Of a DNA stretch of 64,000 nucleotides, positions 11,387 to 45,482 are shown in pieces. Positions within the stretch are counted from its first letter, which is position 1; the number at the start of each line of letters is the position of its first letter. The notes under the pieces were generated by a model. It saw only the letters and a program-made list of their open reading frames with translations, was not told where the DNA came from and made no database searches. Location of the stretch: positions 2,464,001 through 2,528,000 of the forward strand of contig OX638340.1 of assembly GCA_951812955.1 (NCBI GenBank), in the 5' to 3' direction. The translations under genes and the position numbers were made by a program. This DNA is from an uncultured Gemmatimonadota bacterium (GTDB lineage: Bacteria > JAAXHH01).

Positions 11387-12172
11387 ATGATGACACGTTT
11401 TAAAAACATGAATTGCGTCGTCCTTGCGGCGCTTTGCTGCCTGCTCGGCGTGGCGCTGTGGACGAATCGCGGCGCCGGTGATTCGGGCCACGACCTCTTC
11501 CTGCGCAACGACTTCACCTTTGGCCGGGTAGTATACCAGAATTTCGGGGGCTTCTACCGGGGTTTCGGTTTCGGGCGGTGGTCGGTGGATTTCCCGTCTG
11601 CGGATTCCAACGTGATCCGCGCCCTGCGGGCCACCACTTCTCTCAAGATCAACGAACCGCAATCCGTGGAACTTACCGATCCCGAACTGTTCGATATTCC
11701 CTTTCTGTATATCCTGGAAGTCGGATCCCTGCAGTTCAGTCCGGAGGAAGTGGACGCCCTGCGGGAGTACCTATTGCGCGGGGGGTTCCTTCTGGTGGAC
11801 GACTTCCACGGTTCGCGGCAGTGGGCGGTCTGGGAATCGCAGATCAAGCGGGTGTTTCCCGGGCGGGACATCGAGGAGATACCGGCCGACCACCCGATCC
11901 TGCACTGTTACTATGATTTCGACACCTACCCCCTGGTGCCCGGGATCGCGGCGCTGTGGAACATGAACCACTACGAAAGGGACGGCGCCCTGTACGGCCA
12001 CAGGCTGCGGGGGATATTCGACGACGGCGGAAGGCTCATGGTGCTGATGAACTGGAACGCAGACCTGGGCGACGGCTGGGAACACGCGGCCGATCCCGGG
12101 TATCCGCGGGAGTTTTCCGTAACCGCCTACCGCCTGGCCGTCAATTACGCCATCTACGCGATGACGCATTGA
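11387..12172 (+). CDS. DUF4159 domain protein
   Basis: signal-like N-terminus and DUF4159-type segments (FGGFYRGFGFGRW, PFLYILEVGSLQFSPEEVDALREYLLRGGFLLVDD). Confidence 0.65.
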   Translation: MMTRFKNMNCVVLAALCCLLGVALWTNRGAGDSGHDLFLRNDFTFGRVVYQNFGGFYRGFGFGRWSVDFPSADSNVIRALRATTSLKINEPQSVELTDPELFDIPFLYILEVGSLQFSPEEVDALREYLLRGGFLLVDDFHGSRQWAVWESQIKRVFPGRDIEEIPADHPILHCYYDFDTYPLVPGIAALWNMNHYERDGALYGHRLRGIFDDGGRLMVLMNWNADLGDGWEHAADPGYPREFSVTAYRLAVNYAIYAMTH

Positions 12173-12236
12173 TCCAGCCGGCAGGGATCTCCCCGGACCC
12201 GTCGAGTACCCGCGGTCTCATTCTTTATTCGTTGAA

Positions 12237-13289
12237 TCAATCGGCGGAGGACAGCTGCCTGAGCGCGGAGGTCATCACTTCGACGGACCGGAGATACTCG
12301 TCCAGTACGATGTGCTCGTCCGGCGTATGGTCCAGTCTTGAGTCTCCCGGACCGTAGGCCGCGATCGGGCACCCCCATGCCGGGCCGAGGATGCACATGT
12401 CCGACGTGCCCGTCTTCTTCTTGAAGGTGGGCCGGCCCCCAGCCTGCCGGATGGCCCGCAACAGCGAACGGATCATCGGGGTGTTCTTCGGCGCGACGAT
12501 TCCTACCAGCCGCCGGTCGCATTCGATCTCCGCGGGACCCGCCTGTTCCTTCACGAAGCCGATCAGGCCGTCTATGTCGTATTCCGGCGGCACGCGCATC
12601 GAGAAATAGGCGTCCACGCCTTCGGCCAATCCATGGTCGTAGGTATTGAATCGCCGCATTTCGAGCCGGGGAGACTCGAATTCGCTTTCGGTGGCGTGGG
12701 ATGCTGCGCGGGACCGCAGAGCGTTGTAAAGATCTACGGCCCGGTCCCCCGCCCGCCGATGGTCGCCGGCGTGATGGGCGTTGGGCTGTTCGAGCCGGTA
12801 GTCGAAACCTACGAAACCCTTGTACCCGATGGTGATGCTGTCCCAGCCGCTCGGCTCGCCGATGAATACGTAGCCCGGCCGCATGCGGTCCACCAGGTGG
12901 AAGGCGCCCTTCGACGTGGGGCACTCCTCTTCCACGGCGCCGACCAGGGTGATCCGGCCGTTTTCGAGTTCCGTCAAACGGGAAAGGGCGGCGGCGAAGG
13001 CGGCCAGTGGGCCCTTGGCGTCCACGGCGCCCCGGCCGTATAGGCGGCCGCTTTCTTCGCGTATCGGAACGACGCCCGGTACGGTGTCGATATGCCCGAC
13101 CAGTGCGATATGCGGTTCGCCGCGGCCGACTTCGCCCACGGCGTTTCCCGCCTCGTCCACGTGGGCACGGATCCCCCTCCGTTCCATCCACTCGATCAGG
13201 TAGGAGACCGCCTCGCTCTCCTGCGTTGAGGGACTGAACCGCTCGATAAGGCCCCGCAGCAGCGCGACGTCGTCGCGGGCGTCGCTCAT
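12237..13289 (-). CDS. lysK: [LysW]-lysine/ornithine hydrolase LysK (M20 peptidase, ArgE-like); start at the internal Met MSDARDD
   Basis: M20 motifs HIDTVPG, GAVDAKG; the ORF-track N-terminal extension overlaps lysJ; the chosen start makes an ATGA overlap with the lysJ stop at 13286-13289. Confidence 0.75.
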   Translation of the reverse strand: MSDARDDVALLRGLIERFSPSTQESEAVSYLIEWMERRGIRAHVDEAGNAVGEVGRGEPHIALVGHIDTVPGVVPIREESGRLYGRGAVDAKGPLAAFAAALSRLTELENGRITLVGAVEEECPTSKGAFHLVDRMRPGYVFIGEPSGWDSITIGYKGFVGFDYRLEQPNAHHAGDHRRAGDRAVDLYNALRSRAASHATESEFESPRLEMRRFNTYDHGLAEGVDAYFSMRVPPEYDIDGLIGFVKEQAGPAEIECDRRLVGIVAPKNTPMIRSLLRAIRQAGGRPTFKKKTGTSDMCILGPAWGCPIAAYGPGDSRLDHTPDEHIVLDEYLRSVEVMTSALRQLSSAD

Positions 13290-14554
13290 TTCCCCTCCCG
13301 GGCCGCGGTTCGGCCGCGGCCGGCGCGACGCCGATCCCGGCTGTTTCCTTCCCCGCGTCCCGGGCCGGACCGGCCGGACGACGGGTTTTCTCCAAGGGCG
13401 TCCAGTGCTTCGTGCGTTGCCGCCACAACCTGGTCGATTTCCTCCGTGGAGATCGACAGCGGCGGCAGGAACCGCAGCACGGTATTGCCCGCGGGCAGGG
13501 CTAGTACACCCCGTTCCATGAGCCCGCGCAGTACGGGCGTGACCCGGCTCTTCAGCTCGACGCCGATGATCAGGCCCATGCCCCGTATCTCCCGTACGGC
13601 GGGGTGGGCCAACGCCGCGAGGCCTTCCCGGAAATACCCGCCGGCCTCCCTGGCGTTCTCGACAAGGCCTTCCTCGTCCAGCACACGCAGAGTCGCCAGC
13701 CCCGCCGCGCAGATCACCGGGCTGCCGCCGAAGGTGTTTCCGTGGGACATGGACGGGACGCCCTGGACCGCGTCCCCGCAGAGCGCCGCGCCGACGGGGA
13801 GCCCTCCGGCCATGGCCTTGGCCAGGCAGAGGATGTCCGGCCGTATACCGTGGTGCTCGCAGGCAAACATGGCGCCCGTTCTGCCGAACCCGGTCTGCAC
13901 CTCGTCCACGATGAACAAAGCGCCCCGTTCCCTGCAAAGGGCCTCTACCCGCTTCAGGTACCCACCGTCGGCCACACGCACGCCGCCCTCTCCCTGCACG
14001 ACCTCGAGGATGACCGCGGCGGTCTCCTCGCCGATGGCTTCTTCCATGGCGGCGGGATCATTGTATCTGACGTGGGAGAATCCGGGCACGAGGGGTTCAA
14101 AGGGGGCGCGATACTTGGGGTTCCACGTCGCGCTCAATGCGCCGAAGGTGCGTCCGTGGAATCCGCGCTGGGCCGCGATCACGCCGGTTTTTCCCGTGAC
14201 GGCCCGGGCGAATTTCAACGCCGCTTCCACCGCCTCCGTACCGGAGTTGCACAGGAACAGCCGGTCGAGCCCCGCCGGGGCCGCCTCGACCAGGGCCGCG
14301 CCCAGTTCCGCACGCACATCGTTGTAGAAGGAGTCCGGGCATATCGTGAGGCGGTTCACCTGCCGCGTGACCGCTTCGGCCACGGCCGGGTGGCTGTGGC
14401 CAATGTTGGCCGTGCCGATCCCGCCGATGCAGTCGATGTATTCCTTACCGGCGGCGTCCCATACACGCGTGCCGCGGCCGCGGACGATCACCGCGTCGCG
14501 TTTCGGCAGGATGCCCATGGAAACGCCATTTTCCATTGTCTGGTAGTCTGTCAT
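13286..14554 (-). CDS. lysJ: acetylornithine/[LysW]-aminoadipate-semialdehyde aminotransferase (class III PLP)
   Basis: GIRPDILCLAKAMAGGLPVGA PLP-lysine region; ArgD/LysJ-like throughout. Confidence 0.85.
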   Translation of the reverse strand: MTDYQTMENGVSMGILPKRDAVIVRGRGTRVWDAAGKEYIDCIGGIGTANIGHSHPAVAEAVTRQVNRLTICPDSFYNDVRAELGAALVEAAPAGLDRLFLCNSGTEAVEAALKFARAVTGKTGVIAAQRGFHGRTFGALSATWNPKYRAPFEPLVPGFSHVRYNDPAAMEEAIGEETAAVILEVVQGEGGVRVADGGYLKRVEALCRERGALFIVDEVQTGFGRTGAMFACEHHGIRPDILCLAKAMAGGLPVGAALCGDAVQGVPSMSHGNTFGGSPVICAAGLATLRVLDEEGLVENAREAGGYFREGLAALAHPAVREIRGMGLIIGVELKSRVTPVLRGLMERGVLALPAGNTVLRFLPPLSISTEEIDQVVAATHEALDALGENPSSGRSGPGRGEGNSRDRRRAGRGRTAAREGK

Positions 14555-14576
14555 GTTCCCCGTACTCCTGTTTTCG

Positions 14577-15374
14577 TTACCCGATTACCGTGCCCTGTCC
14601 ACGCAGCGCAGCCGTGACGGGTCCGGGTATCCTCCCGTCGCCCAGGATCACCTTTCCCACCCCGACTTCCAGCGCCTCTTTCGCGCCGAGCAGCTTCTTC
14701 TTCATGCGGTCCCGGGCGTGGGTCGCGATCGCCTCGTCTATGTCCTCACGGGCGAGGCGGGGGATCAGCGTGTCTTCGTCCTCGGCGTCCTCGAGGAATC
14801 CAGGCGTGTTGGAAAGGATGACCAGCCTGTCCGCCCCGAGGGCGTCGGCGATCACGGCGGCCGCCCGGTCGCCGTCCACGTTGATGATCTCCCCCTCGTA
14901 GCTGATGGCCGGCGGCGTGATGACCGGCAGGTAACCCTGGTCCAGCAATGAGGTCAGCAGCGGTACGTTCGCCTTCTCGACCCGGCCTGTGTAATCGTTT
15001 CTCAGGACCTTCTTCCGGCCGTCCTCCACGATCCGGAGGGTGGGTTTCCGCCTGCCCTCGAGGAGGCGACCGTCGACCCCGCTCAGTCCTACGGCGTTGG
15101 CGCCGAGCTGCTGCAGTTTCTCCACGATGCGCTTGTTTCGCTTGCCGCAATACACCATGTTGAAGATATCCAGCGTCTCCGGATCGGTATATCGGCTCGT
15201 GTACCCGGAGGGCGACGTGACCATGCGGGGCGGCTTGCCCAGTTGTGTCGATACGGTGTTCAATTCGTCGGAACCGCCGTGCACCAGCACCAGCGGTTCG
15301 GTCTGCCGCGCGATGTCCTCCAGTACGTAGTCCAGGTTGATGCCCCTGCTGCCTCCGGTCTTCACCACGATCAT
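14577..15374 (-). CDS. lysZ: [LysW]-aminoadipate/glutamate kinase (amino-acid kinase family)
   Basis: MIVVKTGGS N-terminus and AAK fold; ATGA overlap with the hisS stop. Confidence 0.8.
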   Translation of the reverse strand: MIVVKTGGSRGINLDYVLEDIARQTEPLVLVHGGSDELNTVSTQLGKPPRMVTSPSGYTSRYTDPETLDIFNMVYCGKRNKRIVEKLQQLGANAVGLSGVDGRLLEGRRKPTLRIVEDGRKKVLRNDYTGRVEKANVPLLTSLLDQGYLPVITPPAISYEGEIINVDGDRAAAVIADALGADRLVILSNTPGFLEDAEDEDTLIPRLAREDIDEAIATHARDRMKKKLLGAKEALEVGVGKVILGDGRIPGPVTAALRGQGTVIG

Positions 15375-16636
15375 GCCGTGCCGCCTCCCTTAACCGCGTC
15401 CAGCACCTCCCACCTGGGAAGGGCCGTCTGCGTACTGTCCGCCATGCGCCGTACCATGACGACGCCGTTTTTCACCTCTTCTTCGCCGATGATCAGGGTG
15501 TATGCGGCACCGATCCGGTCGGCCTGCTTCATCTGGGCCTTCAGGCTGCGGTCCTCCCACAGGGCCGCCGCGCCCACGCCGGCCGAGCGAAGTTCCTGTG
15601 CCAGGACCACGGCGGCGTCCTTGGCCTCGGCGCCGAGATAGGCAACGAACACGGCAGGTTTCGGCACTTCCGGGGGTTCGATCCCCTCCTGCTTCATCGT
15701 GAGGATGATGCGCTCTATGCCCGACGCGAAGCCGATAGCCGGCGTTTCGGGTCCGCCCACCATTCCGATCAGTCCGTCGTACCGCCCGCCCCCGCACACC
15801 GCGTTCTGCGCGCCGATGCCCTCTGCCCAGACCTCGAACACCGTCTTCGTATAGTAGTCGAGTCCCCGCACCATGCGGTGGTTGACCTCGTAAGGGCGGC
15901 CCAGGGCGTCCAGGTACGACCTCAGCTGGACGAAGTGGTCATTGCATGCACCGCACAGGGATTTCGCGATCCGCGGCGCCCCCTCCGCTATCTTCCCGCA
16001 GGATTCCCGCTTGCAATCCAGAAGCCGCAGCGGGTTCTCGCCATAGCGGCGCCGGCAATCATCGCAGATCCCGTCCAGGTGCTGTTCGTACCAAGCCTTC
16101 AGCGTAGCGATGTATCCAGGCCGGCAAGCGGGACACCCCGTACTGTTCACCTGGAAGGACAGCCCCTTGATGCCGACGGCTTCGTAGATCTGCCAGGCGA
16201 CCTGCATCACCTCGAGGTCGATGGCCGGGTCCTGGCTGCCCAGTACCTCCACGTCGACCTGGTAGAACTGGCGGTATCTTCCCGCCTGCGGACGTTCGTA
16301 CCGGAAAGCCGGACCGATCGTATAGAGTCTCAGGGGCTGGGGCCTGCCATGGAGCTTGCGCTCGGCGTAGGCTCGGCAGATCCCCGCCGTGAATTCGGGC
16401 CGCAGCGTCATGCGCTCGTCACTCCGGTCGCGGAAGGTGTACATCTCCTTCTCCACGATGTCCGTGGTCTCGCCGACGCCCCGCTCGAAGAGGCCGGTCT
16501 GCTCGAAGACGGGCACGTCGATCCGCTCGTAGCCGTACAGTTCGCAGACCTGCCGGGTCATCTCGGTCACGAACCGCCAGTAGGCCTGGTCCTCCGGCAG
16601 GATGTCGTAGGTGCCTCTCGGTGCCTGGAATTTCAT
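15371..16636 (-). CDS. hisS: histidine--tRNA ligase
   Basis: MKFQAPRGTYDILPED..., class II aaRS motifs; start at the internal Met with AGGAAG upstream. Confidence 0.9.
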   Translation of the reverse strand: MKFQAPRGTYDILPEDQAYWRFVTEMTRQVCELYGYERIDVPVFEQTGLFERGVGETTDIVEKEMYTFRDRSDERMTLRPEFTAGICRAYAERKLHGRPQPLRLYTIGPAFRYERPQAGRYRQFYQVDVEVLGSQDPAIDLEVMQVAWQIYEAVGIKGLSFQVNSTGCPACRPGYIATLKAWYEQHLDGICDDCRRRYGENPLRLLDCKRESCGKIAEGAPRIAKSLCGACNDHFVQLRSYLDALGRPYEVNHRMVRGLDYYTKTVFEVWAEGIGAQNAVCGGGRYDGLIGMVGGPETPAIGFASGIERIILTMKQEGIEPPEVPKPAVFVAYLGAEAKDAAVVLAQELRSAGVGAAALWEDRSLKAQMKQADRIGAAYTLIIGEEEVKNGVVMVRRMADSTQTALPRWEVLDAVKGGGTA

Positions 16637-16668
16637 TTTGGTCTTCCTATACCGGTCTATACCGGTTC

Positions 16669-17712
16669 CTATACCGGATGCAGGCCCGGAAACTCGAGGC
16701 CCGTCCGTTCGTCCCACCCGTACATGATGTTGAGCGCCTGAACGGCCTGGCCGGCCGCGCCCTTGACCAGGTTGTCCAGCGCCCCCATGACCACGACGCG
16801 GTCGCTGTGCTCGTCCCGTTCGAACCCGACGTCGCAGAAGTTGGTGCCCGACAGGAACTTCGGATCGGGATAGCGGAACACGCCCTGCCGCTCCTTGATG
16901 ATGCGGATGAAGGGCTCCCGTCCATAGGCCTCCCGGTAGATACTCCAGATTTCCCGTTCTGACAGGCCGTCGTTCACGAAGGCGTGGGTCGTCATCAGGA
17001 TGCCGCGCACCAGTTCGATGGCCGTCGCGGAGAAATGGACCTGCGGCGCCTGTCCCCCGAAAGTCAGTTCCTGCACGATCTCTGCCGTATGGCGATGACC
17101 CGTAGGCTTGAAAGAGCGCACCGCGCCGCTTCGGTCGGGGTGGTGGGTGGACCGGTCGGCCCGGTTACCGGCAGCGGAGGACCCGATCTTGCCCTCCATG
17201 TAGAGACGCGAGGGGTCCACCGCGCCAGCCCGCACCAGGGGCGCCAGCGACAGGATCGCCGTGGCGGCCAGGCAACCGGTGCACGCGACGTGCTCGGCGT
17301 CCCGTATCTCGTCACGGTACAGTTCGGCCAGGCCGTACACGAAGCGGTCCAGCATCTCCGGGTGCGCGTGCTCGTGCCCGTACCACGTGGGATAGTCCGC
17401 CGCGTTCCGCAGGCGGAAGTCCGCGCTCAGGTCGATGATGCGGCCGCCCAGGCCCGAAAAGGCGTCCCATCGTTTCATGGCCTCCCCGTGGGGCAGGCAC
17501 AGGCACAATACGTCGCAGGGCTCCAGGTCGGCCATGGCGCTGAATTTCAGGTCCGTGACTCTGCGGAGGTTGGGATGGGCGCGTCCGACGGGCTTGCCGG
17601 CCTGCGATTCCGACGTCACCTGATGGATTTCTATTTCGGGGTGGAAGAGCAGCAGCCGAAGCAGTTCGCCGCCGCCGTACCCGGACGCTCCTGCGATCGA
17701 CACCTTGATCAT
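16669..17712 (-). CDS. lysY: [LysW]-aminoadipyl/glutamyl-phosphate reductase (ArgC/LysY)
   Basis: [24 protein letters not shown]-binding N-terminus; catalytic Cys region VACTGCLA. Confidence 0.85.
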
Positions 17713-18536
17713 GATCGGGCCACCTTTACCAGGTAGTCTATGATGCGCCCGGGAATGTCCACACCCGTTGGCCGGACGCTGTTACGGAATTCCATGGTGT
17801 AGTTCACCTCGTTGACCAGGATCCCCTCGGGAGATTCAAGCAGGTCGACCGCCACCACGCCGCCGCCCACCGCTTCCGCCGCGCGGGAGGACAGCGTCCC
17901 CACGTCCCCGTCGATGGGACAGTCCGCGGTCGTTCCCCCCAGGGCTGTGTTGGTCTTCCAGTGATCCGAATAGCGGTAGACGGCGCAGATGGTTTCGCCG
18001 TCGACCACGAAGGACCGGATATCCCGCCCGGGCTTCTCCACGTACTCCTGGATATAGAACACGGAGTGGTGATAGGACCCCAGGACCTCCTTGTGCTCCA
18101 GCACCGCTTCCGCCGCGTGGCGGTCGTTGATGCGGGCGATCAGCCGTCCCCACGATCCGATGGGCGGCTTGAGTACGACGGGGTAACCCATGGTTTCCAT
18201 CACCTCCAGCGCCGCTTCCGCCGTGAAGGCCACGCGCGCCTTCGGCGTCGGTACGCCGTGATCCACCAGCGCCATGGTCGTCAGGAACTTGTTCCCGCAC
18301 ACGCGGGCCACGTCGTAGGTGTTAACCGTCCTGATACCGCTGGCGTTCAGCATCTTGAGCGAGTAGAGCGCCCTGGAGTGGTTGACGCACCGCTCCAGGA
18401 TGACGTCGTGGTCGTACCGGTGGTTCTCCAGGTCGAAGATGATGCGCCGGTCGTCCATCCGGTCGAAGGCGACGCCCCGTTTCGCAGCCGCCTCGAAGAG
18501 CATCTTCTGTTCCGTGGATACAATGGAAAGTAGCAT
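17709..18536 (-). CDS. lysX: RimK-type ATP-grasp ligase, LysX/ArgX family (start at [10 protein letters not shown]; the ORF-track 510-aa form is an artefactual extension)
   Basis: ATP-grasp RimK-like sequence; 8-nt gap to the upstream paralog stop. Confidence 0.8.
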
Positions 18537-18544
18537 GCCGATCT

Positions 18545-19399
18545 TCACGATGCCCTGCCTCCCTTCGTCACCGTATCCGCTACGTAGTCCATGATTTTGC
18601 CCGGTATATTGACCCCGGTGGCGTCCGACGCGTCGGAAAGGCCGGACGGCGGGCCCATCTCCTGCACGTACCAGGCGTCCTTCGTGCGGACCATGTCCAC
18701 CACCGCGACGCCGCCGCCAATGGCCTCGACGGCAGAGACCGCCAGGCCGTTCAACTCCTCCGTTACGGGTTCGTTCTCCATCAGGCCGCCGGCGGCGATG
18801 GTCCCGATCCAGTGATGGGTCAGCACCGACACGGCGGCCACCGTCTCGCCACCCACCACGTACGCCCGTATGTCGTGACCAGGCGCATCGATATGTTTCT
18901 GCATGAAGAAGATGGAATGGTGATAAGCGCCGAGTATGCGTTTGTGCTCCAGGACCGTCGCCGCCGTATACTTGTCTCCTATGCGGGAAACGAGCTGGTC
19001 CTCGGGGCCCTCCGCGGGTCTCAATACGACCGGGTATCCCATGTCTTCCATTGCCTTGAGCGCCGAGTCCGGCGTATAGGCCAGGCGCATGTCCGGAACC
19101 GGGACGCCCCTCTCCCGCAACGCCAGGGTCGTCAGCAGCCGGTTTCCGTAGGTCTCCACCACGGACTGCCGATTCACCGTGGGTATGCCCCAGTGGTCGA
19201 ACACGGAGAGCGCGTATACGGCCCGGTGGTGATCGACGCACCGTTCCAGGACCACGTCCAGGTCCATGTGCCGGCGGTCGAGTTCGAAGACCTGCCGGGA
19301 ATTGTCGATCGTCGTCACGTCGAAACCGCGCAGACCCGCTTCGGCGATCAGCCGCTTTTCGTCCTTTCGGATCCGAGACAGCACAATGCCCATTTCCAT
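18545..19399 (-). CDS. second RimK-type ATP-grasp ligase, LysX/ArgX-family paralog
   Basis: 284 aa, colinear with the downstream paralog and visibly similar to it (for example GYPVVL[KR]P, HHS[VI]F); amino-acid identity not counted. Confidence 0.8.
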
Positions 19400-19430
19400 G
19401 GTTCCCGCACCTTCTTCCTGGTCATGCCAT

Positions 19431-19481
19431 ACAAAAAAAGGAGCCGGCCTCTTCGCTCAATCGGAAGAGGAACCTGGCTCC
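19431..19481 (-). terminator. intrinsic terminator between lysW and the lysX paralogs
   Basis: minus-strand RNA GGAGCCAGGUUCCUCUUC-loop-GAAGAGGCCGGCUCC followed by UUUUUUUGU. Confidence 0.6.
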
Positions 19482-19641
19482 TGTCAGTTCCCTTGGTCCG
19501 GTTATGCCCCGTAGGGGATCAACACGGACCGCGATGAGCGAACGAACGCAAATCACAATCATGGTATCCATGTTTATGTTTCATTCGTTTATTCATCGCC
19601 GTTTCCTGTTCTCGTTTGAACCCGCAATGCGGGTGAGGGGC

Positions 19642-19806
19642 CTATTCTCCCCAGTCTTCTTCTTCTTCCGGCGCCAACTCCAATTCCAGCGGACTGACGC
19701 TGATTACCTCGAGCTCCGCGCCGCATTCTTCACACTCCAGGATTTCGCCTTCAACGACATCATCGTCCACGTTGACAGCGGCGCCACACTCCGGGCAGGT
19801 TCCCAT
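19642..19806 (-). CDS. lysW: amino-group carrier protein LysW (54 aa; start at MGTCPECG)
   Basis: MGTCPECGAAVNV...ECEECGAELEVISVSPLELELAPEEEEDWGE, a zinc-ribbon with the characteristic C-terminal EDWGE. Confidence 0.85.
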   Translation of the reverse strand: MGTCPECGAAVNVDDDVVEGEILECEECGAELEVISVSPLELELAPEEEEDWGE

Positions 19807-19906
19807 GATATCCCCCGAATTACCTGGACATAGCCCAGTACTGAAACCCATTCCAGGGTCCTTTTACCCCATCGGGAAGGGCCCCGGTCCATGCTGGAAC
19901 GGTCGA

Positions 19907-19934
19907 AATATATGGCGCGGTTAAACCGTGTCAA
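19907..19934 (-). promoter_or_regulatory. candidate sigma70 promoter for lysW (TTGACA, 16 nt, TATATT)
   Basis: hexamers read on the minus strand about 95 nt upstream of the lysW start. Confidence 0.4.
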
Positions 19935-19940
19935 GCGCTT

Positions 19941-22439
19941 TTATGAAGGATTTTCGTCCGTCTCCCCGGTGGATTCGTCCGCTGCGGCCGACGCCGATTC
20001 GTCATCTTCCTCGCCGGGCGTAATCCTGGACACGTCGATCACCCGGTCCCCCTCGTCGAGGTTGATGAGCCGGACACCCTGGGTATTCCGGCCGATGGGT
20101 CGCAGGTCGCGGACAGGCAGGCGTATGATGAGGCCTTTCGTGGTGATAATCATCAGTTCGTCTTCGTCGGAGACGGCGTGAATCGACACGACGGGACCGT
20201 TGCGTTCGCTGGTGCGTATGTTGCTCACGCCCTTGCTGTGCCGGCGGGTCAGCCGGTAGCTCGCGATGTCCGTCCGCTTACCGTAGCCGTTTTCCGTCAC
20301 GGAAAGCAGCGTGGTGTCCCGTCCGGACGCCAGCATGCCCACGACCCGGTCGTCTTCGCCGAGGCGAATGCCACGCACTCCCTGTGCGCCGCGGCCCATC
20401 GTCCGGACATCGCTCTCGTGAAAACGGACGGCCTGGCCATTCCGGCTGGCGATGACGATGTCGTTGCCTCCATCGGTAAGCAGGGCCTCGATGAGGGCGT
20501 CGCCCTCGAGGATGTTCAGTGCAACGATGCCGTTCCGGCGGGGATTCCCATAAGCGGAAAGAACGGTCTTCTTCACGAGACCACCCCGCGTAACCATCAT
20601 GATGTAGTGGTCGTCGTCGAACGTCCTGATCGGCAGGAAGGCCGCAATACTCTCGCCCTGGCCGAGCTGCAGCAGGTTGACCACGGCCTTGCCACGGGCC
20701 GTGCGTCCGGCTTCGGGGATCTCCCACACCTTGAGCCAGTAACACTTACCTCGGTTCGTGAAGAACAGGATATAGGAATGGGTCGAGGCGGAGAAGAGGT
20801 GCTCCACGAAGTCCTCTTCACGGGTCTTCATGCCGGTGATCCCCTTGCCGCCGCGGTTCTGGCTGCGATAGGTGTCCATGGGCAGGCGCTTGACGTAGCC
20901 GGCGTGGGAGATGGTGATGACCATTTCCTCGTCGGCGATCAGGTCCTCGATGCTGAGATCGCCTTCGATGTCGATCAACTCGGTCCGTCTTTCATCGCCG
21001 TAGCGTTCCTTCAGGTCGAGCATCTCTTCCTTGATGATCTGCATCCGGCGATCCAGGCGTGAGAGGATATCCCGGAAATCGGCGATCCGGGCGACCAGTT
21101 CGTTGTATTCTTCCTCGAGCTTGTCCCTTTCCAGTCCGGTCAGGCGCTGCAGGCGCATGTCCAGGATGGCCTCGACCTGGGCACGGGACAGTCCGAACTC
21201 GTCCACCAGGATCTCCATGGCCTCCTCGCCGGTACGCGACCCGCGGAGGATTTCGATCACGCGGTCCACGTTGTCCAGCGCGATGCGCAGACCTTCCACG
21301 ATGTGGGCCCGTTGCTCGGCCTTCTCGAGGTCGAAGGTGGTCCGGCGCACCAGCACCTCGTGACGGTGGTCGATGAAGTGCTGAATGCATTCCTTGATGT
21401 TCAGGACGCGGGGACGTCCGTCCACGAGCGCCAGCATGGTGACGCCGATGGTGGTCTCGAGCGACGTCATCTTGAAGAGGTGGTTCAGTACGATTGTGCC
21501 CGGGATATCCCGCCGCACGTCGATGGCGATGCGCAGACCCGACCGGTCGGACTCGTCCCGTATATCGGTAATGCCCAGTATCTGCTTTTCACGGACGAGG
21601 TCGGCGATCTTCTCGATCAGGCTGGCCTTGTTGACCTTGTACGGGATTTCCGTGATGACGATGGTTTCCTTCTCGCTTTGCTCATGAAGCTCGATCTCCG
21701 TGCGGGCGCGCACCTTGATCTTGCCGCGGCCGGTGTGGAAATACTCTTTAATCGCGTTGCGGCCGTATATGATCGCGCCGGTGGCAAGATCGGGACCCTG
21801 GATGTGTCCGGCGATCTCATCGATCGTGATTTCCGGGTTCTCGATCACCGCCACCATCCCATCCACCACCTCGCTGAGGTTATGGGAAGGCAGGTTGGAT
21901 GCCATGCCCACGCCAATACCGAGCGACCCGTTGCAAAGCAGGTTGGGGAACTTGCCCGGAAGCACCGTCGGCTCGTCTTTCGACTCGTCGTAGTTGGGCA
22001 TGAAATCGACGGTGTTCTTGTCGATATCCTCCATCATCTCGATGGCCAGGCGGGACATCCTCGATTCGGTGTACCGCATGGCGCCCGGGGGATCGCCGTC
22101 TATGGAACCGAAATTCCCCTGTCCGAAGACCATGGGGTAACGCATGCTGAACGGCTGGGCCATCCGCGCGAGGGTGTCGTATACGGCCAGGTCTCCGTGG
22201 GGATGGTAATCACCGATCGTCTGGCCGACGATCTTGGCGCATTTCCGCGTGGGCCGTCCCGGTGTGAGGTTCAGGTCGCGCATCGCCACGAGTATGCGTC
22301 GCTGGGACGGTTTGAACCCGTCGCGGACGTCCGGAATCGCCCGTGACAGATTCACACTCATGGAGAAGTCGAGATAGGAACTCTTCATCTCGTCTTCGAT
22401 GAAGATGGGCTGAATATTGTCGTGTTGTTCTACCGCCAT
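19941..22439 (-). CDS. gyrA: DNA gyrase subunit A
   Basis: 832 aa; active-site region AMRYTE; GyrA box. Confidence 0.95.
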   Translation of the reverse strand: MAVEQHDNIQPIFIEDEMKSSYLDFSMSVNLSRAIPDVRDGFKPSQRRILVAMRDLNLTPGRPTRKCAKIVGQTIGDYHPHGDLAVYDTLARMAQPFSMRYPMVFGQGNFGSIDGDPPGAMRYTESRMSRLAIEMMEDIDKNTVDFMPNYDESKDEPTVLPGKFPNLLCNGSLGIGVGMASNLPSHNLSEVVDGMVAVIENPEITIDEIAGHIQGPDLATGAIIYGRNAIKEYFHTGRGKIKVRARTEIELHEQSEKETIVITEIPYKVNKASLIEKIADLVREKQILGITDIRDESDRSGLRIAIDVRRDIPGTIVLNHLFKMTSLETTIGVTMLALVDGRPRVLNIKECIQHFIDHRHEVLVRRTTFDLEKAEQRAHIVEGLRIALDNVDRVIEILRGSRTGEEAMEILVDEFGLSRAQVEAILDMRLQRLTGLERDKLEEEYNELVARIADFRDILSRLDRRMQIIKEEMLDLKERYGDERRTELIDIEGDLSIEDLIADEEMVITISHAGYVKRLPMDTYRSQNRGGKGITGMKTREEDFVEHLFSASTHSYILFFTNRGKCYWLKVWEIPEAGRTARGKAVVNLLQLGQGESIAAFLPIRTFDDDHYIMMVTRGGLVKKTVLSAYGNPRRNGIVALNILEGDALIEALLTDGGNDIVIASRNGQAVRFHESDVRTMGRGAQGVRGIRLGEDDRVVGMLASGRDTTLLSVTENGYGKRTDIASYRLTRRHSKGVSNIRTSERNGPVVSIHAVSDEDELMIITTKGLIIRLPVRDLRPIGRNTQGVRLINLDEGDRVIDVSRITPGEEDDESASAAADESTGETDENPS

Positions 22440-38004: not shown

Positions 38005-38014
38005 CGCGGATTCC

Positions 38015-39292: not shown

Positions 39293-41002
39293 TTACCTGC
39301 CGCTGGTTCTCGCCATGAACGCTTCGATGTCTTCGATCGACCTGGGTACGCCGTCCGACAGTACCCGGTGTCCGTCTTCGGTCACCAGCACGTCGTCTTC
39401 GATGCGCACGCCGATATTCCTGTATCGCTCGAAAGCGGGGCGGATCGCCTCGATCAGCGCGTTATTCCGGGGGGTGTCTTCAAGGTTTTCGAGCGTGTCC
39501 TCCCGGATGTAGATGCCGGGTTCCACCGTGATAACCATGCCTGGCCTGAAGGGCATGTCCCTTCCGCCGACGTCATGGACGTCCAGGCCCAGCCAGTGGC
39601 TGGTGCCGTGCATGAACCACATGCGATACTGGTTTCCCGACGCATCTTTAATCAGGCCCAGCTTCAGGAGCCCGTCCGCGACCGCCTTCCGCGCCGTTTC
39701 ATGCACCCTTCGTATGGTCATGCCGGGCCGGACCGCGGCCATGGCGCGGGCATGGGCATCGAGAACGACATCGTACACTTCACGCTGCGCTTCCGTGAAG
39801 ACCCCGCCGACCGGAAACGTCCGGGTGACGTCGGCCGTGTAGTTTCCAACGGCCGCGCCGATATCGGCCAGGACGAGCTCGCCCTTCGTGATTTCACGGT
39901 TGTTCTCTTCGTAGTGTAACGTCGTCGCGTTGGGACCCGAGGCCACGATGGATGGAAATCCCCAGCGCGCGCCGTGACCGCGATAGGTTGCAAGAATGAT
40001 GCCGTCGAGTACGGATTCGTTCAGCGGTTCCGCGGTGCTGGCCGCCTTGCGCATGATGGCCCGTTGCGCCAGGCAGGTAATGTCGATGGCCCGTTGCAGC
40101 CGCCGGAGTTCCCAGGGCGACTTGACGACGCGCTGGTCCCGGAAGAGGCCGGACGCCAACCGCACCTGTACGGCGGGAAATCGAGCGGCTTCCGAGGCGA
40201 ATTGCACGGCCTGGGGATACCGGGTCCCGAACCTGGACTGCGCGTCGGCCAGCAACCAGACTTGCACGGGTTTACCGCGCTCGATGGATTCGGACGTGAC
40301 CTGGTAATCACGCGCGTCGCCGGAGGGACGTTTTTCATACGTGGATCCGCCGAGGATGGCCTCGACAAAGGCTTCGAATTCTTCAATCGGCCATACATGC
40401 TCGATCCCGGTCATGCGCCGGGCTTCATCTACGCCGATCATGTGGCCGGTCCAGATTTCCCGCGCGGGGTCGCGCCTGGGGAGAAAGAGGATTTCCTTCT
40501 GGCTTCTATTATCGGGCAGCAGTACGAGCGCGGCGCCGGGCTGGCTGATGCCGGTCAGGTAGAACAGGTTGCTTTCCTGGCGGTAGGGATAGTTGACGTC
40601 GTTGCTGAATACCTTGGGTTCCGTCCCGAACAGGATCATGATCCCGCTGCCCATACCCTTGAGTATCCGGGCCCGCCGTTCCGCCAGTTCCTCCGCCGGC
40701 GCCGGTCCGGCGTCCTCCGTGATCGACACGGTCTCCAGCTGGGCTGCGGCCGGGGAAGCCGGCGCTGCTCCATAGAGGACCGCGATCCAGAGTGCGGCGG
40801 AAAAGGCCGCGCGAAAAGCGGTGGAAAAGGCCATCCGCATGGAAAAGACCGCGCGAAAAGCGGCAGAAGAGGCCATCCAGGTCGTAGCGGAAAAGTCCGC
40901 GCACCACGCGGTGGCGGCCGTGAAATAACCCGTCGCACTTCGTCGCTTCATGGGTCGTCGTCCTGTGGAATCGTTTGTGTCGTACGCGTCGTATGTGTTC
41001 AA
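39293..41002 (-). CDS. pepP: Xaa-Pro aminopeptidase (M24B, PepP-like) with a long repeat-containing N-terminal leader (alternative start MKRRSATGY at 40951)
   Basis: M24 metal ligands (HGTSHWLGLDVHD...); AMP_N domain; ATGA overlap with the argJ stop if the start is at 41002. Confidence 0.75.
   Translation of the reverse strand: MNTYDAYDTNDSTGRRPMKRRSATGYFTAATAWCADFSATTWMASSAAFRAVFSMRMAFSTAFRAAFSAALWIAVLYGAAPASPAAAQLETVSITEDAGPAPAEELAERRARILKGMGSGIMILFGTEPKVFSNDVNYPYRQESNLFYLTGISQPGAALVLLPDNRSQKEILFLPRRDPAREIWTGHMIGVDEARRMTGIEHVWPIEEFEAFVEAILGGSTYEKRPSGDARDYQVTSESIERGKPVQVWLLADAQSRFGTRYPQAVQFASEAARFPAVQVRLASGLFRDQRVVKSPWELRRLQRAIDITCLAQRAIMRKAASTAEPLNESVLDGIILATYRGHGARWGFPSIVASGPNATTLHYEENNREITKGELVLADIGAAVGNYTADVTRTFPVGGVFTEAQREVYDVVLDAHARAMAAVRPGMTIRRVHETARKAVADGLLKLGLIKDASGNQYRMWFMHGTSHWLGLDVHDVGGRDMPFRPGMVITVEPGIYIREDTLENLEDTPRNNALIEAIRPAFERYRNIGVRIEDDVLVTEDGHRVLSDGVPRSIEDIEAFMARTSGR
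40799..40919. repeat. 42-nt (2x21-nt) tandem repeat, about 2.9 copies, encoding AFRAAFS-type heptads in the pepP N-terminus
   Basis: ggaaaaggccgcgcgaaaagcggtggaaaaggccatccgcat followed by ggaaaagaccgcgcgaaaagcggcagaagaggccatccaggt and a partial third unit. Confidence 0.55.
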
Positions 41003-42216
41003 GTGGTGTATTCCGCGTTCACGGTCACGTATTCATGGGACATGTCGCAGGTCCATACCGTGGCCGCGCCGTCTCCCAGTTTGAGATCGATTTCGACCGG
41101 AATTTCCCCGGCGGAGAGCGCTTCCCGCATGGCCGGTTCGTCGAGGGTGAGCCCCCGGCCATCCTGCGTCAGCTGGTGACCGCACAGGAACAGGTCGATG
41201 GCGTCGGGGTCCGTTTCGGCGTCCGCGTAGCCGACGGCGCAGAGGATCCTGCCCCAGTTCGGATCGTGGCCGTAAATGGCTGTCTTCACGAGCGCGGAGT
41301 TCGCCACGCTCATGCCGATCGTCCGGGCGTCCTCGTCCGTCCGGGCTCCCTGCACGCGTATCTCCACGAGTTTCGTCGCCCCTTCGCCGTCCCGCGCGAT
41401 CTTCTTGGCCAGGTCGGTGCAGACGTGCTCCAGCGCTTCGGCGAACCGCTCGTAGGCGTCCCCGTCGGGCCGCGTGATTACCGGGTTTTCCGCGGCGCCG
41501 TTGGCCAGGATGAACACGGTGTCGTTCGTGCTCATGTCGCCGTCGACGGTGATGCAGTTGAAGGACTTCCCGGCGGCCCGGCGCAGGGCCGACTGGAGGG
41601 CCCCCGGCGCGATGGCGGCGTCCGTCGTGATCAACCCGATCATCGTGGCCATGTTCGGGCAGATCATGCCCGCGCCCTTGGCGATTCCGCCGACCACCAC
41701 GGCCGACCCTTCGAGATCGCACCACACCGCGCAGGATTTGGGGACCGTGTCAGTCGTCATGATTGAATCGGCGGCGTCCCGGTCCGAACCCAGCCGTTGC
41801 CGGTCCAGCGCTTCCCGGATGCCGTCGCGGATTATGTCCATGGGCAGGGGACGTCCGATCACCCCGGTGGAGGCGACGAGGATCTCGCTTGCGGGCACGG
41901 ACAGACCGCCGGCGACCAGGCCGGCCATCTCCCGGGCGTCCGCCATGCCGGCCTCCCCGTTGCACGCGTTCGCGTTGCCGCTGTTTGCCACTACGGCCCG
42001 CGCCATGCCGGTCTGCAGATGGTCCCTGGACAGGATCACCGGCGCGGCCTGCACCCGGTTCGTGGTAAATACGCCCGCCGCGGAGGCGGTACCGCCCGCG
42101 TCGATCAAAACCAGGTCCTTGCGGCTGCCCTTCGGACTGTTGATGCCGCAACTCGCTGTGTTGGCCAGGAATCCCTTCGGCGCCAGCACGCCCCCGTCTA
42201 CCGTTTGCATAGTCAA
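40999..42216 (-). CDS. argJ: bifunctional glutamate N-acetyltransferase / amino-acid acetyltransferase ArgJ
   Basis: ArgJ family throughout; autoprocessing region present; C-terminus VNAEYTT. Confidence 0.9.
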
Positions 42217-45200: not shown

Positions 45201-45482
45201 CGTCTGCCCACCCAGCGTAGGCAACAGTACGTCGGGCCGCTCGCGCCGGATGATCTTTTCTACGTATTCCGCGGTGATGGGCTCGACGTAGGTCCGGTCC
45301 GCCATGTCCGGGTCCGTCATGATCGTGGCCGGATTGCTGTTGATCAGCACGACCCGGTAGCCCTCTTCCCGGAGCGCCCGGCAGGCCTGGGTGCCGGAAT
45401 AGTCGAATTCGCAGGCCTGTCCGATTACGATCGGACCGGAGCCGATGATCAGGATGGATTCGATGTCGGTGCGTTTAGGCAA
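42213..45482 (-). CDS. carB: carbamoyl-phosphate synthase large subunit
   Basis: 1089 aa; duplicated ATP-grasp halves plus an MGS-like domain. Confidence 0.95.

What the first reader, a model, noticed from the sequence alone, without database searches (positions are those of the whole stretch)
17709..19399. Two tandem LysX-like ATP-grasp paralogs
In Sulfolobus, separate LysX and ArgX load aminoadipate and glutamate onto LysW. Thermus has a single LysX. Two adjacent paralogs in a bacterium, diverged from one another though visibly related, suggest substrate specialisation. One carrier protein may then be used for both lysine and ornithine/arginine.
Basis: partly seen in the sequence, partly recalled or inferred. 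Interest (0 to 1): 0.5.

Follow-up and report, generated by a model that had tools for sequence, protein, structure and literature searches.

The report
Orthodox LysX plus remodelled LysX paralogue
Two adjacent LysX-like genes really sit in a lysine-biosynthesis operon, but only the second looks like a working LysX ligase; the first is a conserved, fast-evolved copy that has lost the motifs LysX and ArgX use to grip the carrier protein and do chemistry, so it is probably an accessory partner, not an arginine-pathway twin.

Summary
Two LysX-like ATP-grasp genes overlap by 4 nt on the minus strand and are 42% identical: Xa (18545-19399) and Xb (17709-18548). They lie in the operon lysW-Xa-Xb-lysY-hisS-lysZ-lysJ-lysK.

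The Sulfolobus-style LysX/ArgX reading is not supported.
- Xb is LysX-type, with signature F-V-T-NS and GSWGR, ExN and TNT motifs intact.
- Xa keeps the LysX fold (TM 0.92 to Thermus LysX). It has replaced GSWGR, the motif reported to recognise the LysW EDWGE tail, and lost the ExN asparagine, N202, R137, R177, R194 and the E255-F256 pocket wall. Its signature Y-V-I-DA matches no characterised type.
- Real ArgX-like second paralogues in three other bacterial loci differ from LysX only at the signature positions.
- ArgJ is encoded 21 kb away, which points to an acetyl-cycle arginine route.

Xa is not decaying: dN/dS is 0.116, against 0.110 for Xb. It forms one narrow family (26 genomes labelled Latescibacterota, Gemmatimonadota or Zixibacteria) and always sits next to Xb. 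Xb has in turn lost R10 and E13, which Xa keeps.

Best reading (about 0.5): Xb is the ligase and Xa a non-ligase accessory subunit. This is a new variant of a known kind, of moderate interest.

The parts
18545..19399 (-). Xa: a diverged LysX-like ATP-grasp paralogue (284 aa). It keeps the LysX fold, but the carrier-recognition, phosphate/Mg and amino-acid-pocket motifs are replaced.
   Evidence: TIGR02144 LysX scores 235.7 bits, below the 275.6 cutoff; the RimK family model scores 206.7, above its cutoff. The AF2 model has pLDDT 88.3. The top Foldseek match is 3vpd_A, TM 0.92. Motif losses are shown. dN/dS is 0.116.
17709..18548 (-). Xb: a LysX-type LysW:alpha-aminoadipate ligase (279 aa). Its catalytic motifs are intact, but it carries clade-specific changes: R10S, E13Q, G185D, I200K, R205L.
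   Evidence: TIGR02144 scores 338.2 bits, above the 275.6 cutoff. It is 53% identical to Thermus LysX. Its signature is F-V-T-NS. Its deviations are listed. dN/dS is 0.110.
19642..19806 (-). lysW: the amino-group carrier protein (54 aa, zinc ribbon, C-terminal EDWGE).
   Evidence: TIGR01206 lysW scores 64.9 bits, above the 53.2 cutoff. The sequence is given. EDWGE is conserved in all 26 related loci.
19907..19934 (-). A sigma-70-like promoter match (TTGACA-16-TATATT, 11 of 12) upstream of lysW.
   Evidence: This is a consensus match only.
19519..19596 (-). A conserved 25-codon leader ORF (MNKRMKHKHGYHDCDLRSFAHRGPC), rich in Lys and His, lying inside a long hairpin between lysW and Xa.
   Evidence: The reading frame and the KHKH run are kept in 22 related loci.
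19433..19481 (-). A GC-rich hairpin followed by a T-run (intrinsic-terminator-like), ending 33 nt upstream of the Xa start codon.
   Evidence: Folding gives z = -4.68. The hairpin is conserved in 12 of 12 aligned loci.
16669..17712 (-). lysY (ArgC family reductase). Its start overlaps the Xb stop.
   Evidence: TIGR01850 scores 387.8 bits; ORF.
15371..16636 (-). hisS: a full-length histidyl-tRNA synthetase embedded in the operon.
   Evidence: Pfam tRNA-synt_His plus the HGTP_anticodon domain. Present at this position in L001-L025 (L026 ends inside Xb).
14577..15374 (-). lysZ: [LysW]-aminoadipate kinase.
   Evidence: NF010659 scores 388.3 bits, above the 223 cutoff.
13286..14554 (-). lysJ: an ArgD-family aminotransferase.
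   Evidence: TIGR00707 scores 444.9 bits; the LysJ_Th_th model scores 450.8, below its cutoff.
12237..13289 (-). lysK: [LysW]-lysine hydrolase.
   Evidence: NF003367 scores 397.4 bits, above the 363 cutoff.
40999..42216 (-). argJ (context, not part of the operon): bifunctional ornithine acetyltransferase, immediately after carB (42213-45482).
   Evidence: NF003802 scores 510.4 bits, above the 351 cutoff. CarB NF003671 scores 1690 bits.

Best explanation
The operon is a Thermus-type LysW-mediated lysine pathway. Xb is the working LysX: it uses ATP to activate the gamma-carboxyl of the C-terminal Glu of LysW and ligates alpha-aminoadipate to it.

Xa arose by duplication of a bacterial LysX, evolved rapidly, and has since been held under strong purifying selection. 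It keeps the LysX fold, the N-domain residues R10 and E13, and R55, R180, D237 and E249. It has lost the GSWGR motif that grips the EDWGE tail of LysW, the ExN asparagine, several active-site arginines, and the LysX/ArgX amino-acid pocket. I therefore infer that Xa no longer ligates an amino acid to LysW.

Xb has reciprocally lost R10 and E13, and Xa is never found without Xb. The two genes are also translationally coupled. The most likely role for Xa is a non-catalytic accessory (structural or regulatory) subunit working with Xb, following the duplication-degeneration-complementation pattern.

Shown: gene structure, motif losses, selection, co-occurrence and phylogenetic restriction. Inferred: loss of ligase activity, physical association with Xb, and any regulatory role.
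For: Xb matches the LysX equivalog above its cutoff; Xa falls below it.

Xa has the LysX fold: AF2 pLDDT 88.3, TM 0.92 to 3vpd.

Of 113 columns that are at least 95% conserved in 54 single-copy bacterial LysX, Xa deviates at 28 (plus 2 shared with Xb) and Xb at 7 (plus 2 shared).

Xa's losses include S134, W135 and R137 of GSWGR, K89R, R177H, R194V, N202, R205, N251, E255 and F256. Each is 77-97% conserved in 90 family representatives, except R205 at 61%, and every one except R205 is invariant in the three characterised enzymes (R205 is Leu in Sulfolobus ArgX).

GSWGR is reported to recognise EDWGE (PMC10433800), and EDWGE is intact in 26 of 26 LysW. ExN, the loop and the lysines are superfamily-defining features (PMC4431377).

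Xa's replacement motifs are themselves conserved: EGPxxQL[IV]S, HWIxPI, GLxEAS. dN/dS is 0.116 for Xa against 0.110 for Xb.

Gene order is the same in all 26 Xa genomes as far as each contig extends, and Xa never occurs without Xb. The association is complete: Xb has S/T10 plus Q13 in 25 of 25 Xa genomes, and LysX has R10 plus E13 in 54 of 54 genomes without Xa.

Xa is monophyletic on a long stem. Its root-to-tip distance is 0.66-0.72, against 0.20 for single-copy LysX.

The family is one 50%-identity cluster among 1.84 billion representatives: 538 bits, with the next hit at 307 bits.
Against: No biochemical or interaction data exist. Loss of activity is inferred from motifs alone.

Basal family members still have K129 and a G-x-x-G loop (KPxEGPxGQL), plus D237, E249 and R180. 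ATP binding, and some ATP-grasp chemistry, could therefore survive. The ExN asparagine is occasionally replaced in active ATP-grasp enzymes (PMC4431377).

The active-site cleft of Xa is highly conserved within the family. This fits a ligand-binding or catalytic role at least as well as a purely structural one.

Translational coupling and a fixed gene order are also seen for the other operon genes, so they do not prove a complex. I could not run a multimer prediction. I also could not establish whether R10 and E13 can act in trans.

Xa and Xb are not sisters in the NJ tree (0 of 100 bootstraps), so the origin of Xa (local duplication or transfer) is unresolved.
Confidence: 0.5

Rival explanations
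1. Xa is a bacterial ArgX analogue. It loads glutamate onto the same LysW, so that LysZ, LysY, LysJ and LysK make both lysine and ornithine.
For: The paralogues differ at all the specificity positions. Xa has a beta-branched hydrophobic residue at 203, like ArgX (V), and Y at 182 and A at 259, like the bifunctional Thermococcus enzyme. Thermus LysZ and LysY can process LysW-Glu (PMC12998189), so downstream promiscuity is plausible. Only one ArgB/ArgC/ArgD-type gene set is visible in the window. Xa keeps R10, E13, R55 and R180.
Against: GSWGR, the reported EDWGE-recognition motif, is gone and partly replaced by acidic residues (EGPEDQ). N251, N202, R137, R177 and R194 are lost, although Sulfolobus ArgX and Thermococcus LysX/ArgX keep them all. 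An acidic D or E at 258 would sit where I assume the substrate's distal carboxylate binds. ArgJ is present, which points to the acetyl cycle. Bacterial ArgX-like paralogues in L062, L067 and L069 look quite different from Xa. The leader peptide is rich in Lys and His, not Arg.
Confidence: 0.1
2. Xa is still an active ATP-grasp ligase but has been retargeted. It would use a different amine substrate (for example a cationic or neutral amino acid), a different acceptor than the canonical EDWGE tail, or both.
For: Selection is strong and the replacement motifs within the cleft are family-specific and conserved. Basal members keep K129, the G-x-x-G loop, D237, E249 and R180. The cleft has shifted from basic to acidic: R137Q, R177H, R194V, W135E, G136D, N258D/E. 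That suggests a different, possibly cationic, ligand. Other LysX-like lineages with altered loops (GxGGQL) exist in AmCP/arginine gene clusters, for example P0143 in L081.
Against: No additional carrier gene or tailoring enzyme is found in the operon in any of 26 genomes. The ExN asparagine is missing in 37 of 37 members, and a basic residue at 200/205 is missing in most. The crown group also has K129R and has lost the second loop glycine.
Confidence: 0.25
3. Xa is a redundant duplicate that is decaying, in effect a pseudogene in the making.
For: Xa has many substitutions at otherwise invariant positions, and its branch is long.
Against: The ORF is intact in 25 of 26 genomes spanning 59-100% identity. 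dN/dS is 0.116, the same as Xb. About 70 columns are invariant within the family, including the replacement motifs. Position and coupling are conserved.
Confidence: 0.02

Closest known systems
Thermus thermophilus LysX (PDB 3VPD/1UC8): LysW:alpha-aminoadipate ligase of the AmCP lysine pathway
   Same: Xb is 53% identical to it, with the same GSWGR, TNT, ExN and EF(K/R)NS motifs, a LysX-type signature, and the same operon partners (LysW with EDWGE, LysY, LysZ, LysJ, LysK). ArgJ is present alongside, as expected for a Thermus-like split into a LysW route for lysine and an acetyl route for arginine (Thermus is described that way in PMC12998189). Xa shares the fold (TM 0.92) and is 38% identical.
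   Different: Thermus has one LysX. Here a second, remodelled copy sits between lysW and lysX. Xb itself lacks R10, E13 and R205 and has K200. hisS and a leader/terminator element are embedded in the operon.
Sulfolobus LysX/ArgX pair (ArgX PDB 3VPB) sharing one LysW
   Same: Two LysX-family paralogues and a single LysW carrier are present. The paralogues differ at the five signature positions.
   Different: Both Sulfolobus enzymes keep all catalytic and LysW-recognition motifs and differ mainly in the pocket. Xa lacks those motifs. Xa is only 28% identical to ArgX and belongs to the bacterial LysX radiation. In the NJ tree rooted on Sulfolobus ArgX, Xa sat inside a clade made up of bacterial LysX sequences and family representatives; its exact position was unstable in bootstraps.
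Bacterial LysX plus ArgX-like pairs found here in KSB1 and unclassified MAGs (L062, L067, L069)
   Same: A second LysX-family gene sits inside a lysW-lysX-lysY-...-lysZ cluster in uncultured bacteria, one of them labelled candidate division KSB1.
   Different: Those second copies keep R10, E13, GSWGR, N202, R194, ExN and EF, and change only the signature (I-A/S-A-GC in L062 and L067). This is what a substrate-specialised twin looks like. Xa changes 13 of the 22 non-signature key positions tabulated.
Non-catalytic paralogue subunits of amino-acid pathway enzymes (for example HisZ, the HisRS-derived regulatory subunit of ATP-phosphoribosyltransferase); this comparison is from my own knowledge
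   Same: A duplicated enzyme loses catalytic residues, stays under selection and is encoded next to the pathway it serves.
   Different: No interaction or regulation has been shown for Xa. This is an analogy, not a membership claim.
RimK (ribosomal protein S6 poly-glutamate ligase)
   Same: NCBI's pipeline names an Xa orthologue (MBT5871800.1) 'RimK family alpha-L-glutamate ligase'. Structural similarity is TM about 0.86. The Xa loop EGPxGQL and the xPxGLxEAS segment superficially resemble RimK's EGTQGIG and SPGLEGIE; the RimK sequence is recalled from memory, so this is a lead, not a test.
   Different: Xa is much closer to LysX (38-50% identical) than to RimK (22-25% in the structural alignments). 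It lacks the ExN asparagine, and it sits in a lysW operon.

Membership tests
ATP-grasp superfamily (both proteins) | Three-domain ATP-grasp fold with a pre-ATP-grasp N-domain | tested here: met
   Precomputed Pfam domains PF22626 (listed as LysX_preATP_grasp) and PF08443 (RimK) on the Xa family proteins. The Xa AF2 model matches LysX, ArgX and RimK structures with TM 0.86-0.92. Xb matches 3vpd at E = 9e-89.
ATP-grasp superfamily, catalytic core (Xa) | [quoted passage not shown] | tested here: not met
   D237, E249 and R180 are kept. K89 becomes R in 34 of 37 members. K129 becomes R in 20 of 37. The loop is GP(x)(G/D/E)Q instead of GSWGR. The N of ExN is absent in 37 of 37 (G25, S7, A3, T1).
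ATP-grasp superfamily, catalytic core (Xb) | Same features as for Xa | tested here: met
   K89, K129, GSWGR, D237, E249, N251 and R180 are present in 25 of 25 Xb sequences.
LysX/ArgX AmCP ligases (Xa) | GSWGR motif that recognises the EDWGE tail of LysW/ArgW (PMC10433800) | tested here: not met
   In Xa the motif reads GPEDQ, and G-P-x-[GDE]-Q across the family. S134 becomes P in 36 of 37 members. W135 is lost in 37 of 37. R137 becomes Q in 36 of 37.
LysX/ArgX AmCP ligases (Xa) | Five-residue specificity signature of a characterised type, plus conserved substrate-recognition residues | tested here: not met
   The Xa signature is Y-V-I-DA ([YF]-[VIL]-[IV]-[DE]A across the family). The known types are F-I-T-NS, I-Y-V-GF and Y-I-T-NA, and the haloarchaeal ArgX ends in Ala-Leu. 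R194 becomes V; N202 and R205 are lost.
LysX/ArgX AmCP ligases (Xa) | Encoded next to a LysW carrier and LysZ/Y/J/K-type genes | tested here: met
   The order lysW-Xa-Xb-lysY-hisS-lysZ-lysJ-lysK holds in all 26 genomes as far as each contig extends.
LysX/ArgX AmCP ligases (Xa) | ATP-dependent ligation of an amino acid to the C-terminal Glu of LysW | not testable with these tools
   This needs an enzyme assay with LC-MS.
LysX, aminoadipate-specific (Xb) | LysX equivalog score, GSWGR, and a LysX-type signature F-I-T-NS | tested here: met
   TIGR02144 scores 338.2, above the 275.6 cutoff. The signature is F-V-T-NS, with a conservative I192V change. Caveat: R10S, E13Q, G185D, I200K and R205L depart from every single-copy LysX examined.
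ArgX, glutamate-specific (either protein) | ArgX-type pocket (I182, Y192, V203, G258-F259, or the haloarchaeal variant) on an otherwise intact LysX/ArgX scaffold | tested here: not met
   Neither copy has it. The comparator ArgX-like proteins in L062 and L067 do (I-A/S-A-GC, all other motifs intact).
Leader-peptide transcription attenuator (the lysW-Xa spacer) | Short ORF with regulatory codons, a terminator hairpin with a T-run, and a mutually exclusive antiterminator | tested here: inconclusive
   The leader ORF with a KHKH run is conserved in 22 loci. The terminator-like hairpin is conserved. No antiterminator emerged when the 5' arm was removed.

The most novel reading that the evidence does not exclude
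Xa and Xb form an obligate heteromeric 'split' LysX. A ligase-dead paralogue supplies N-domain residues that Xb has lost (R10, E13), and acts as a regulatory or carrier-handling subunit. One possibility is that it senses a cationic end product such as lysine through its remodelled, acidified cleft. This would be the first pseudoenzyme subunit described in amino-group-carrier-protein pathways, and a clean natural case of duplication-degeneration-complementation in an ATP-grasp enzyme.
Probability: 0.3. Interest if true: 0.65.

Novelty: new variant of a known kind. Interest (0 to 1): 0.45.

Why it matters
LysW/AmCP pathways serve as a model for how lysine and arginine biosynthesis diverged from a promiscuous ancestor. 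The known outcomes of LysX duplication are substrate-specialised twins (LysX and ArgX).

This locus shows a different outcome. One copy keeps the chemistry. The other is rebuilt at the carrier-recognition and catalytic sites yet stays under strong selection, and the catalytic copy has complementary losses.

If the two act together, this adds a regulatory or structural layer to AmCP pathways. It also warns against annotating every second LysX-like gene as ArgX, or as 'RimK family glutamate ligase'.

In practice, metabolic reconstructions of these uncultured lineages, many of them MAGs whose isolate names suggest sponge or coral hosts, should not infer LysW-dependent arginine synthesis from this gene pair.

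Tried and rejected
1. Rfam scan of 12000-20200 at E <= 1: no hits, so there is no known riboswitch or leader.
2. An apparent Xa-Xb fusion in L019 was an artefact of my ORF extension; a TAG stop is present.
3. The NJ phylogeny could not place Xa. Its sister group is unstable, and Xa plus Xb group together in 0 of 100 bootstraps. Local duplication and transfer therefore cannot be told apart.
4. Search for an antiterminator in the lysW-Xa spacer: the terminator still dominates when the 5' arm of the leader hairpin is removed. The alifold alignment is too conserved to show much covariation.
5. The primary structural paper on Thermococcus LysX (PMC5076833) is not held. Residue roles therefore come from secondary descriptions.
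6. A whole-genome check for argB, argC, argD and the aminoadipate-forming genes was not possible. Only the 64-kb window could be searched, and it yielded argJ and carB.
7. I considered an AF2 run on a linked Xa-Xb fusion.
8. I considered that the basic leader peptide might be a graspetide-like substrate of Xa. I set this aside because its nucleotide-level conservation, the hairpin and the terminator fit an RNA or leader element better, and Xa lacks the catalytic residues.
Full report
**1. What is at the coordinates**

The interval 17709-19399 holds two complete minus-strand genes.
- The upstream one, here called Xa, runs 19399 to 18545 (284 aa, ATG start).
- The downstream one, Xb, runs 18548 to 17709 (279 aa). 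It starts at a GTG whose last base is the first base of the Xa stop codon (GTGA overlap), behind a GGGAGG ribosome-binding site.
- The Xb stop in turn overlaps the start of the next gene.

The two proteins align without gaps over 273 residues at 42% identity (E = 4e-85).

**2. Context**

The genes belong to a minus-strand operon: lysW (19642-19806), Xa, Xb, lysY (16669-17712), hisS (15371-16636), lysZ (14577-15374), lysJ (13286-14554), lysK (12237-13289).
- LysW is a 54-aa zinc-ribbon carrier ending in EDWGE.
- LysZ, LysK and LysW exceed the curated NCBIfam cutoffs for the LysW-pathway models.
- Upstream lie gyrA, gyrB, recF, dnaN and dnaA, so this is the replication-origin region.
- The best genome match is a MAG labelled Gemmatimonadetes (JAPOOT010000364, 100% Xa identity).
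- Close relatives are MAGs labelled Latescibacterota, Gemmatimonadota or Zixibacteria. The isolate names of several of them suggest sponge or coral hosts (my reading of the names).

**3. Xb is an orthodox LysX**

- Xb scores 338 bits on the LysX equivalog TIGR02144 (cutoff 275.6).
- It is 53% identical to Thermus LysX and 35% to Sulfolobus ArgX.
- The specificity signature defined for this family (Thermus positions 182/192/203/258-259) has three described types: LysX F-I-T-NS, ArgX I-Y-V-GF, and bifunctional Y-I-T-NA (PMC12998189).
- Xb reads F-V-T-NS, which is LysX type. It keeps K89, K129, GSWGR, R177, R180, R194, N202, D237, E249-x-N251 and E255-F256.

**4. Xa is not an ArgX**

- Xa falls below the LysX cutoff (235.7 bits) and passes only the generic RimK-family model. 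NCBI names an orthologue 'RimK family alpha-L-glutamate ligase', while Xb orthologues are named LysX.
- The fold is intact. The AF2 model has pLDDT 88.3 and superposes on Thermus LysX with TM 0.92, on Thermococcus LysX/ArgX with 0.89, and on Sulfolobus ArgX with 0.88.
- The functional motifs are not intact. PVVLKPxxGSWGRLLS becomes [26 protein letters not shown] becomes [23 protein letters not shown] becomes [13 protein letters not shown].
- Thermus LysX, Thermococcus LysX/ArgX and Sulfolobus ArgX all keep the canonical versions.
- GSWGR is described as the element that recognises the EDWGE tail of LysW/ArgW (PMC10433800). EDWGE is retained by LysW in all 26 related loci.
- ExN, the glycine-rich loop and the two lysines are superfamily-defining ATP-grasp features (PMC4431377).
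- The Xa signature, Y-V-I-DA, matches no characterised type. It places an acidic residue at position 258, where LysX has Asn.

**5. Quantifying the asymmetry**

I aligned 37 Xa-family sequences, 25 Xb, 54 single-copy bacterial LysX from the genome scan, 90 family representatives at 50% clustering or below, and the three structural references.

Of 113 columns at least 95% conserved in single-copy LysX, Xa deviates at 28 and Xb at 7, with 2 more shared.

| Position (Thermus numbering) | Change in Xa |
|---|---|
| K89 | R |
| S134 | P |
| W135 | E/S/P |
| R137 | Q |
| K174 | A |
| R177 | H |
| R194 | V |
| N202 | T/P/S |
| T203 | I |
| E240 | R |
| N251 | G/S/A |
| E255 | G |
| F256 | L |
| N258 | D/E |
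| S259 | A |

The net effect is to turn a basic cleft, built for ATP, a dicarboxylate and an acidic tail, into a neutral-to-acidic one.

**6. Xa is a maintained, coherent, narrow family**

- Database hits at 58-99% identity all carry the same replacement motifs: EGPxxQL[IV]S, HWIx[PT]I, GLx[ED]A[SA].
- At 50% identity and below, the hits switch abruptly to canonical LysX.
- In a profile search of 1.84 billion representatives, the family is a single 50% cluster (538 bits). The next hit scores 307 bits.
- Pairwise dN/dS is 0.116 for Xa and 0.110 for Xb (148 genome pairs). Decay is therefore excluded.
- In an NJ tree, Xa is monophyletic (100 of 100 bootstraps) on a long stem (0.34). Its root-to-tip distance is 0.66-0.72, against 0.20 for single-copy LysX and 0.32 for Xb. 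Its exact sister is unresolved, and it is never sister to Xb.

**7. Co-occurrence and complementary change**

- All 26 genomes with Xa show the same order as far as their contigs extend: lysW-Xa-Xb-lysY-hisS-lysZ-lysJ-lysK. Three contigs end early (L006 after hisS, L026 inside Xb), and gyrA is seen upstream in 24 of the 26. Xa never occurs without Xb.
- Xb in these genomes has itself lost R10 (to S/T), E13 (to Q), G185 (to D) and R205 (to L), and has gained K200.
- R10, E13 and G185 are invariant in the three characterised enzymes and at least 80% conserved in the representatives. Xa keeps all three.
- The association is complete. S/T10 plus Q13 occur in 25 of 25 Xb from Xa genomes. R10 plus E13 occur in 54 of 54 LysX from genomes without Xa.
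- This reciprocal pattern is what duplication-degeneration-complementation predicts. It is my main reason to favour a functional partnership.
- Whether R10 and E13 can act across a subunit interface is not known. The RimK literature notes that N-terminal loops contact the neighbouring subunit's ATP-binding domain (PMC10092738). That is only suggestive.

**8. What a genuine bacterial ArgX-like twin looks like**

Three other loci from the same scan carry a second LysX-family gene after lysY: L067 (KSB1), L062 and L069. It keeps the GSWGR, DIR, TNxxRGG and ExN/EF motifs in all three, and in L062 and L067 also R10, E13 and R194. It differs from LysX essentially at the signature positions (I-A/S-A-GC in L062 and L067). 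Xa is qualitatively different.

**9. The arginine route**

The window encodes ArgJ (40999-42216; 510 bits, cutoff 351) directly after carB. ArgJ recycles the acetyl group of N-acetylornithine. This implies an acetyl-cycle arginine pathway, as in Thermus, and removes the need for LysW-Glu. This is an inference. I could not inspect the rest of the genome for argB, argC and argD.

**10. Mechanistic conclusion**

- Shown: Xb has everything expected of a LysW:aminoadipate ligase. Xa has the fold but lacks the carrier-tail recognition motif, part of the Mg/phosphate machinery and the LysX/ArgX pocket. It is under selection, confined to one clade, and always paired with a reciprocally altered Xb.
- Inferred (confidence about 0.5): Xa no longer ligates amino acids to LysW and serves as an accessory structural or regulatory partner of Xb.
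- Rival, about 0.25: Xa is a retargeted active ATP-grasp ligase. Basal members keep K129, a G-x-x-G loop, D237, E249 and R180, and the cleft is conserved.
- Rival, about 0.1: Xa is an ArgX analogue.
- Rival, about 0.02: Xa is a decaying duplicate.

**11. Comparison with known systems, and novelty**

- The operon is a Thermus-type AmCP lysine pathway.
- The pair resembles Sulfolobus LysX/ArgX only in being two paralogues with one carrier.
- I found no description of a motif-degenerate LysX paralogue in the searchable literature.
- Other altered-loop LysX-like lineages do exist, for example P0143 in an argG-argH-lysW-X-M20-X cluster (L081). LysX-family diversification is therefore broader than the LysX/ArgX dichotomy.
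- I rate this a new variant of a known kind, of moderate interest.

**12. A side observation**

The 242-nt lysW-Xa spacer is conserved in 22 loci.
- It contains a 25-codon ORF, M[SN]KR[MI]KHKH..., rich in Lys and His.
- The ORF lies inside a long hairpin and is followed by a GC-rich hairpin with a T-run, ending 33 nt upstream of the Xa start codon.
- This looks like a leader-peptide attenuator for an operon that makes lysine and contains hisS. No antiterminator was identified.

Noticed in passing
window 19433-19596 (minus strand), between lysW and Xa: This is a conserved attenuator-like element. It has a 25-codon Lys/His-rich leader ORF (MNKRMKHKHGYHDCDLRSFAHRGPC; the KHKH run is kept in 22 loci) inside a long hairpin, followed by a GC-rich hairpin plus T-run ending 33 nt upstream of the Xa start codon. 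Folding gives z = -4.68. There is no Rfam match, and no antiterminator was found.
   Followed up: partly
window 15371-16636 (minus strand): A full-length hisS (with anticodon-binding domain) sits between lysY and lysZ in L001-L025 (L026 ends inside Xb). Its identity to the window copy drops to 31-38% in L020 and L023-L025 while its neighbours stay at 62-84%, which hints at replacement or much faster evolution. The Lys/His leader may explain the linkage.
   Followed up: partly
window 40999-45482 (minus strand): carB and argJ overlap start to stop, and are followed by a Xaa-Pro aminopeptidase-like gene. ArgJ implies an acetyl-cycle arginine route. argB, argC and argD were not found in the window.
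   Followed up: partly
L062:2587-3513, L067:5772-6644, L069:3503-4486: MAGs from KSB1 (L067) and unclassified bacteria (L062, L069) carry lysW-lysX-lysY followed by a second, catalytically intact LysX-family gene. Its signature is ArgX-like (I-A/S-A-GC in L062 and L067; L069 ends in SC).
   Followed up: partly
L081:5081-10864: The cluster reads argG-argH-lysW-like, then a LysX-like gene with an altered loop (P0143: GTGGQL, TNTARGG lost, ExN kept), then an M20 peptidase, then a second LysX-like gene with canonical catalytic motifs. This is another uncharacterised two-paralogue AmCP arrangement. Other altered-loop representatives (P0136, P0138, P0147, P0125) were seen, but their contexts were not examined.
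   Followed up: partly
L034, L043, L059, L061 (downstream of the lys cluster): Loci from Anaerolineae, a Chloroflexi MAG and Melioribacteraceae carry a second, distant ArgC/ArgB set (ArgD too in all but L061; 22-40% identical to LysY/Z/J) right after the lys genes. In these genomes the LysW lysine genes and canonical arginine genes sit side by side.
   Followed up: no
L003:10830-10939: The Xa C-terminal tail is expanded by a short tandem peptide repeat (DTVS/DAVT units). The tail beyond residue ~275 is variable across the family.
   Followed up: no
window 36763-39277 (minus strand): Two adjacent MoeA/Glp-type molybdopterin molybdotransferase paralogues (413 and 420 aa).
   Followed up: no
window 56324-58198 and 58538-60412 (minus strand): Two adjacent 624-aa ORFs have near-identical N-termini (M..T.HDDTY.I.QCLQGNA.AFEPLVRRYQNAAFAVALG). 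They lie in a lower-GC stretch (about 0.50-0.55, against 0.60-0.65 elsewhere). They were not characterised.
   Followed up: no
window 9267-11370 (plus strand): An AAA ATPase and a VWA-domain protein give sub-cutoff matches to the MadB and MadC families (349.6 bits against a 475 cutoff; 180.4 against 600).
   Followed up: no
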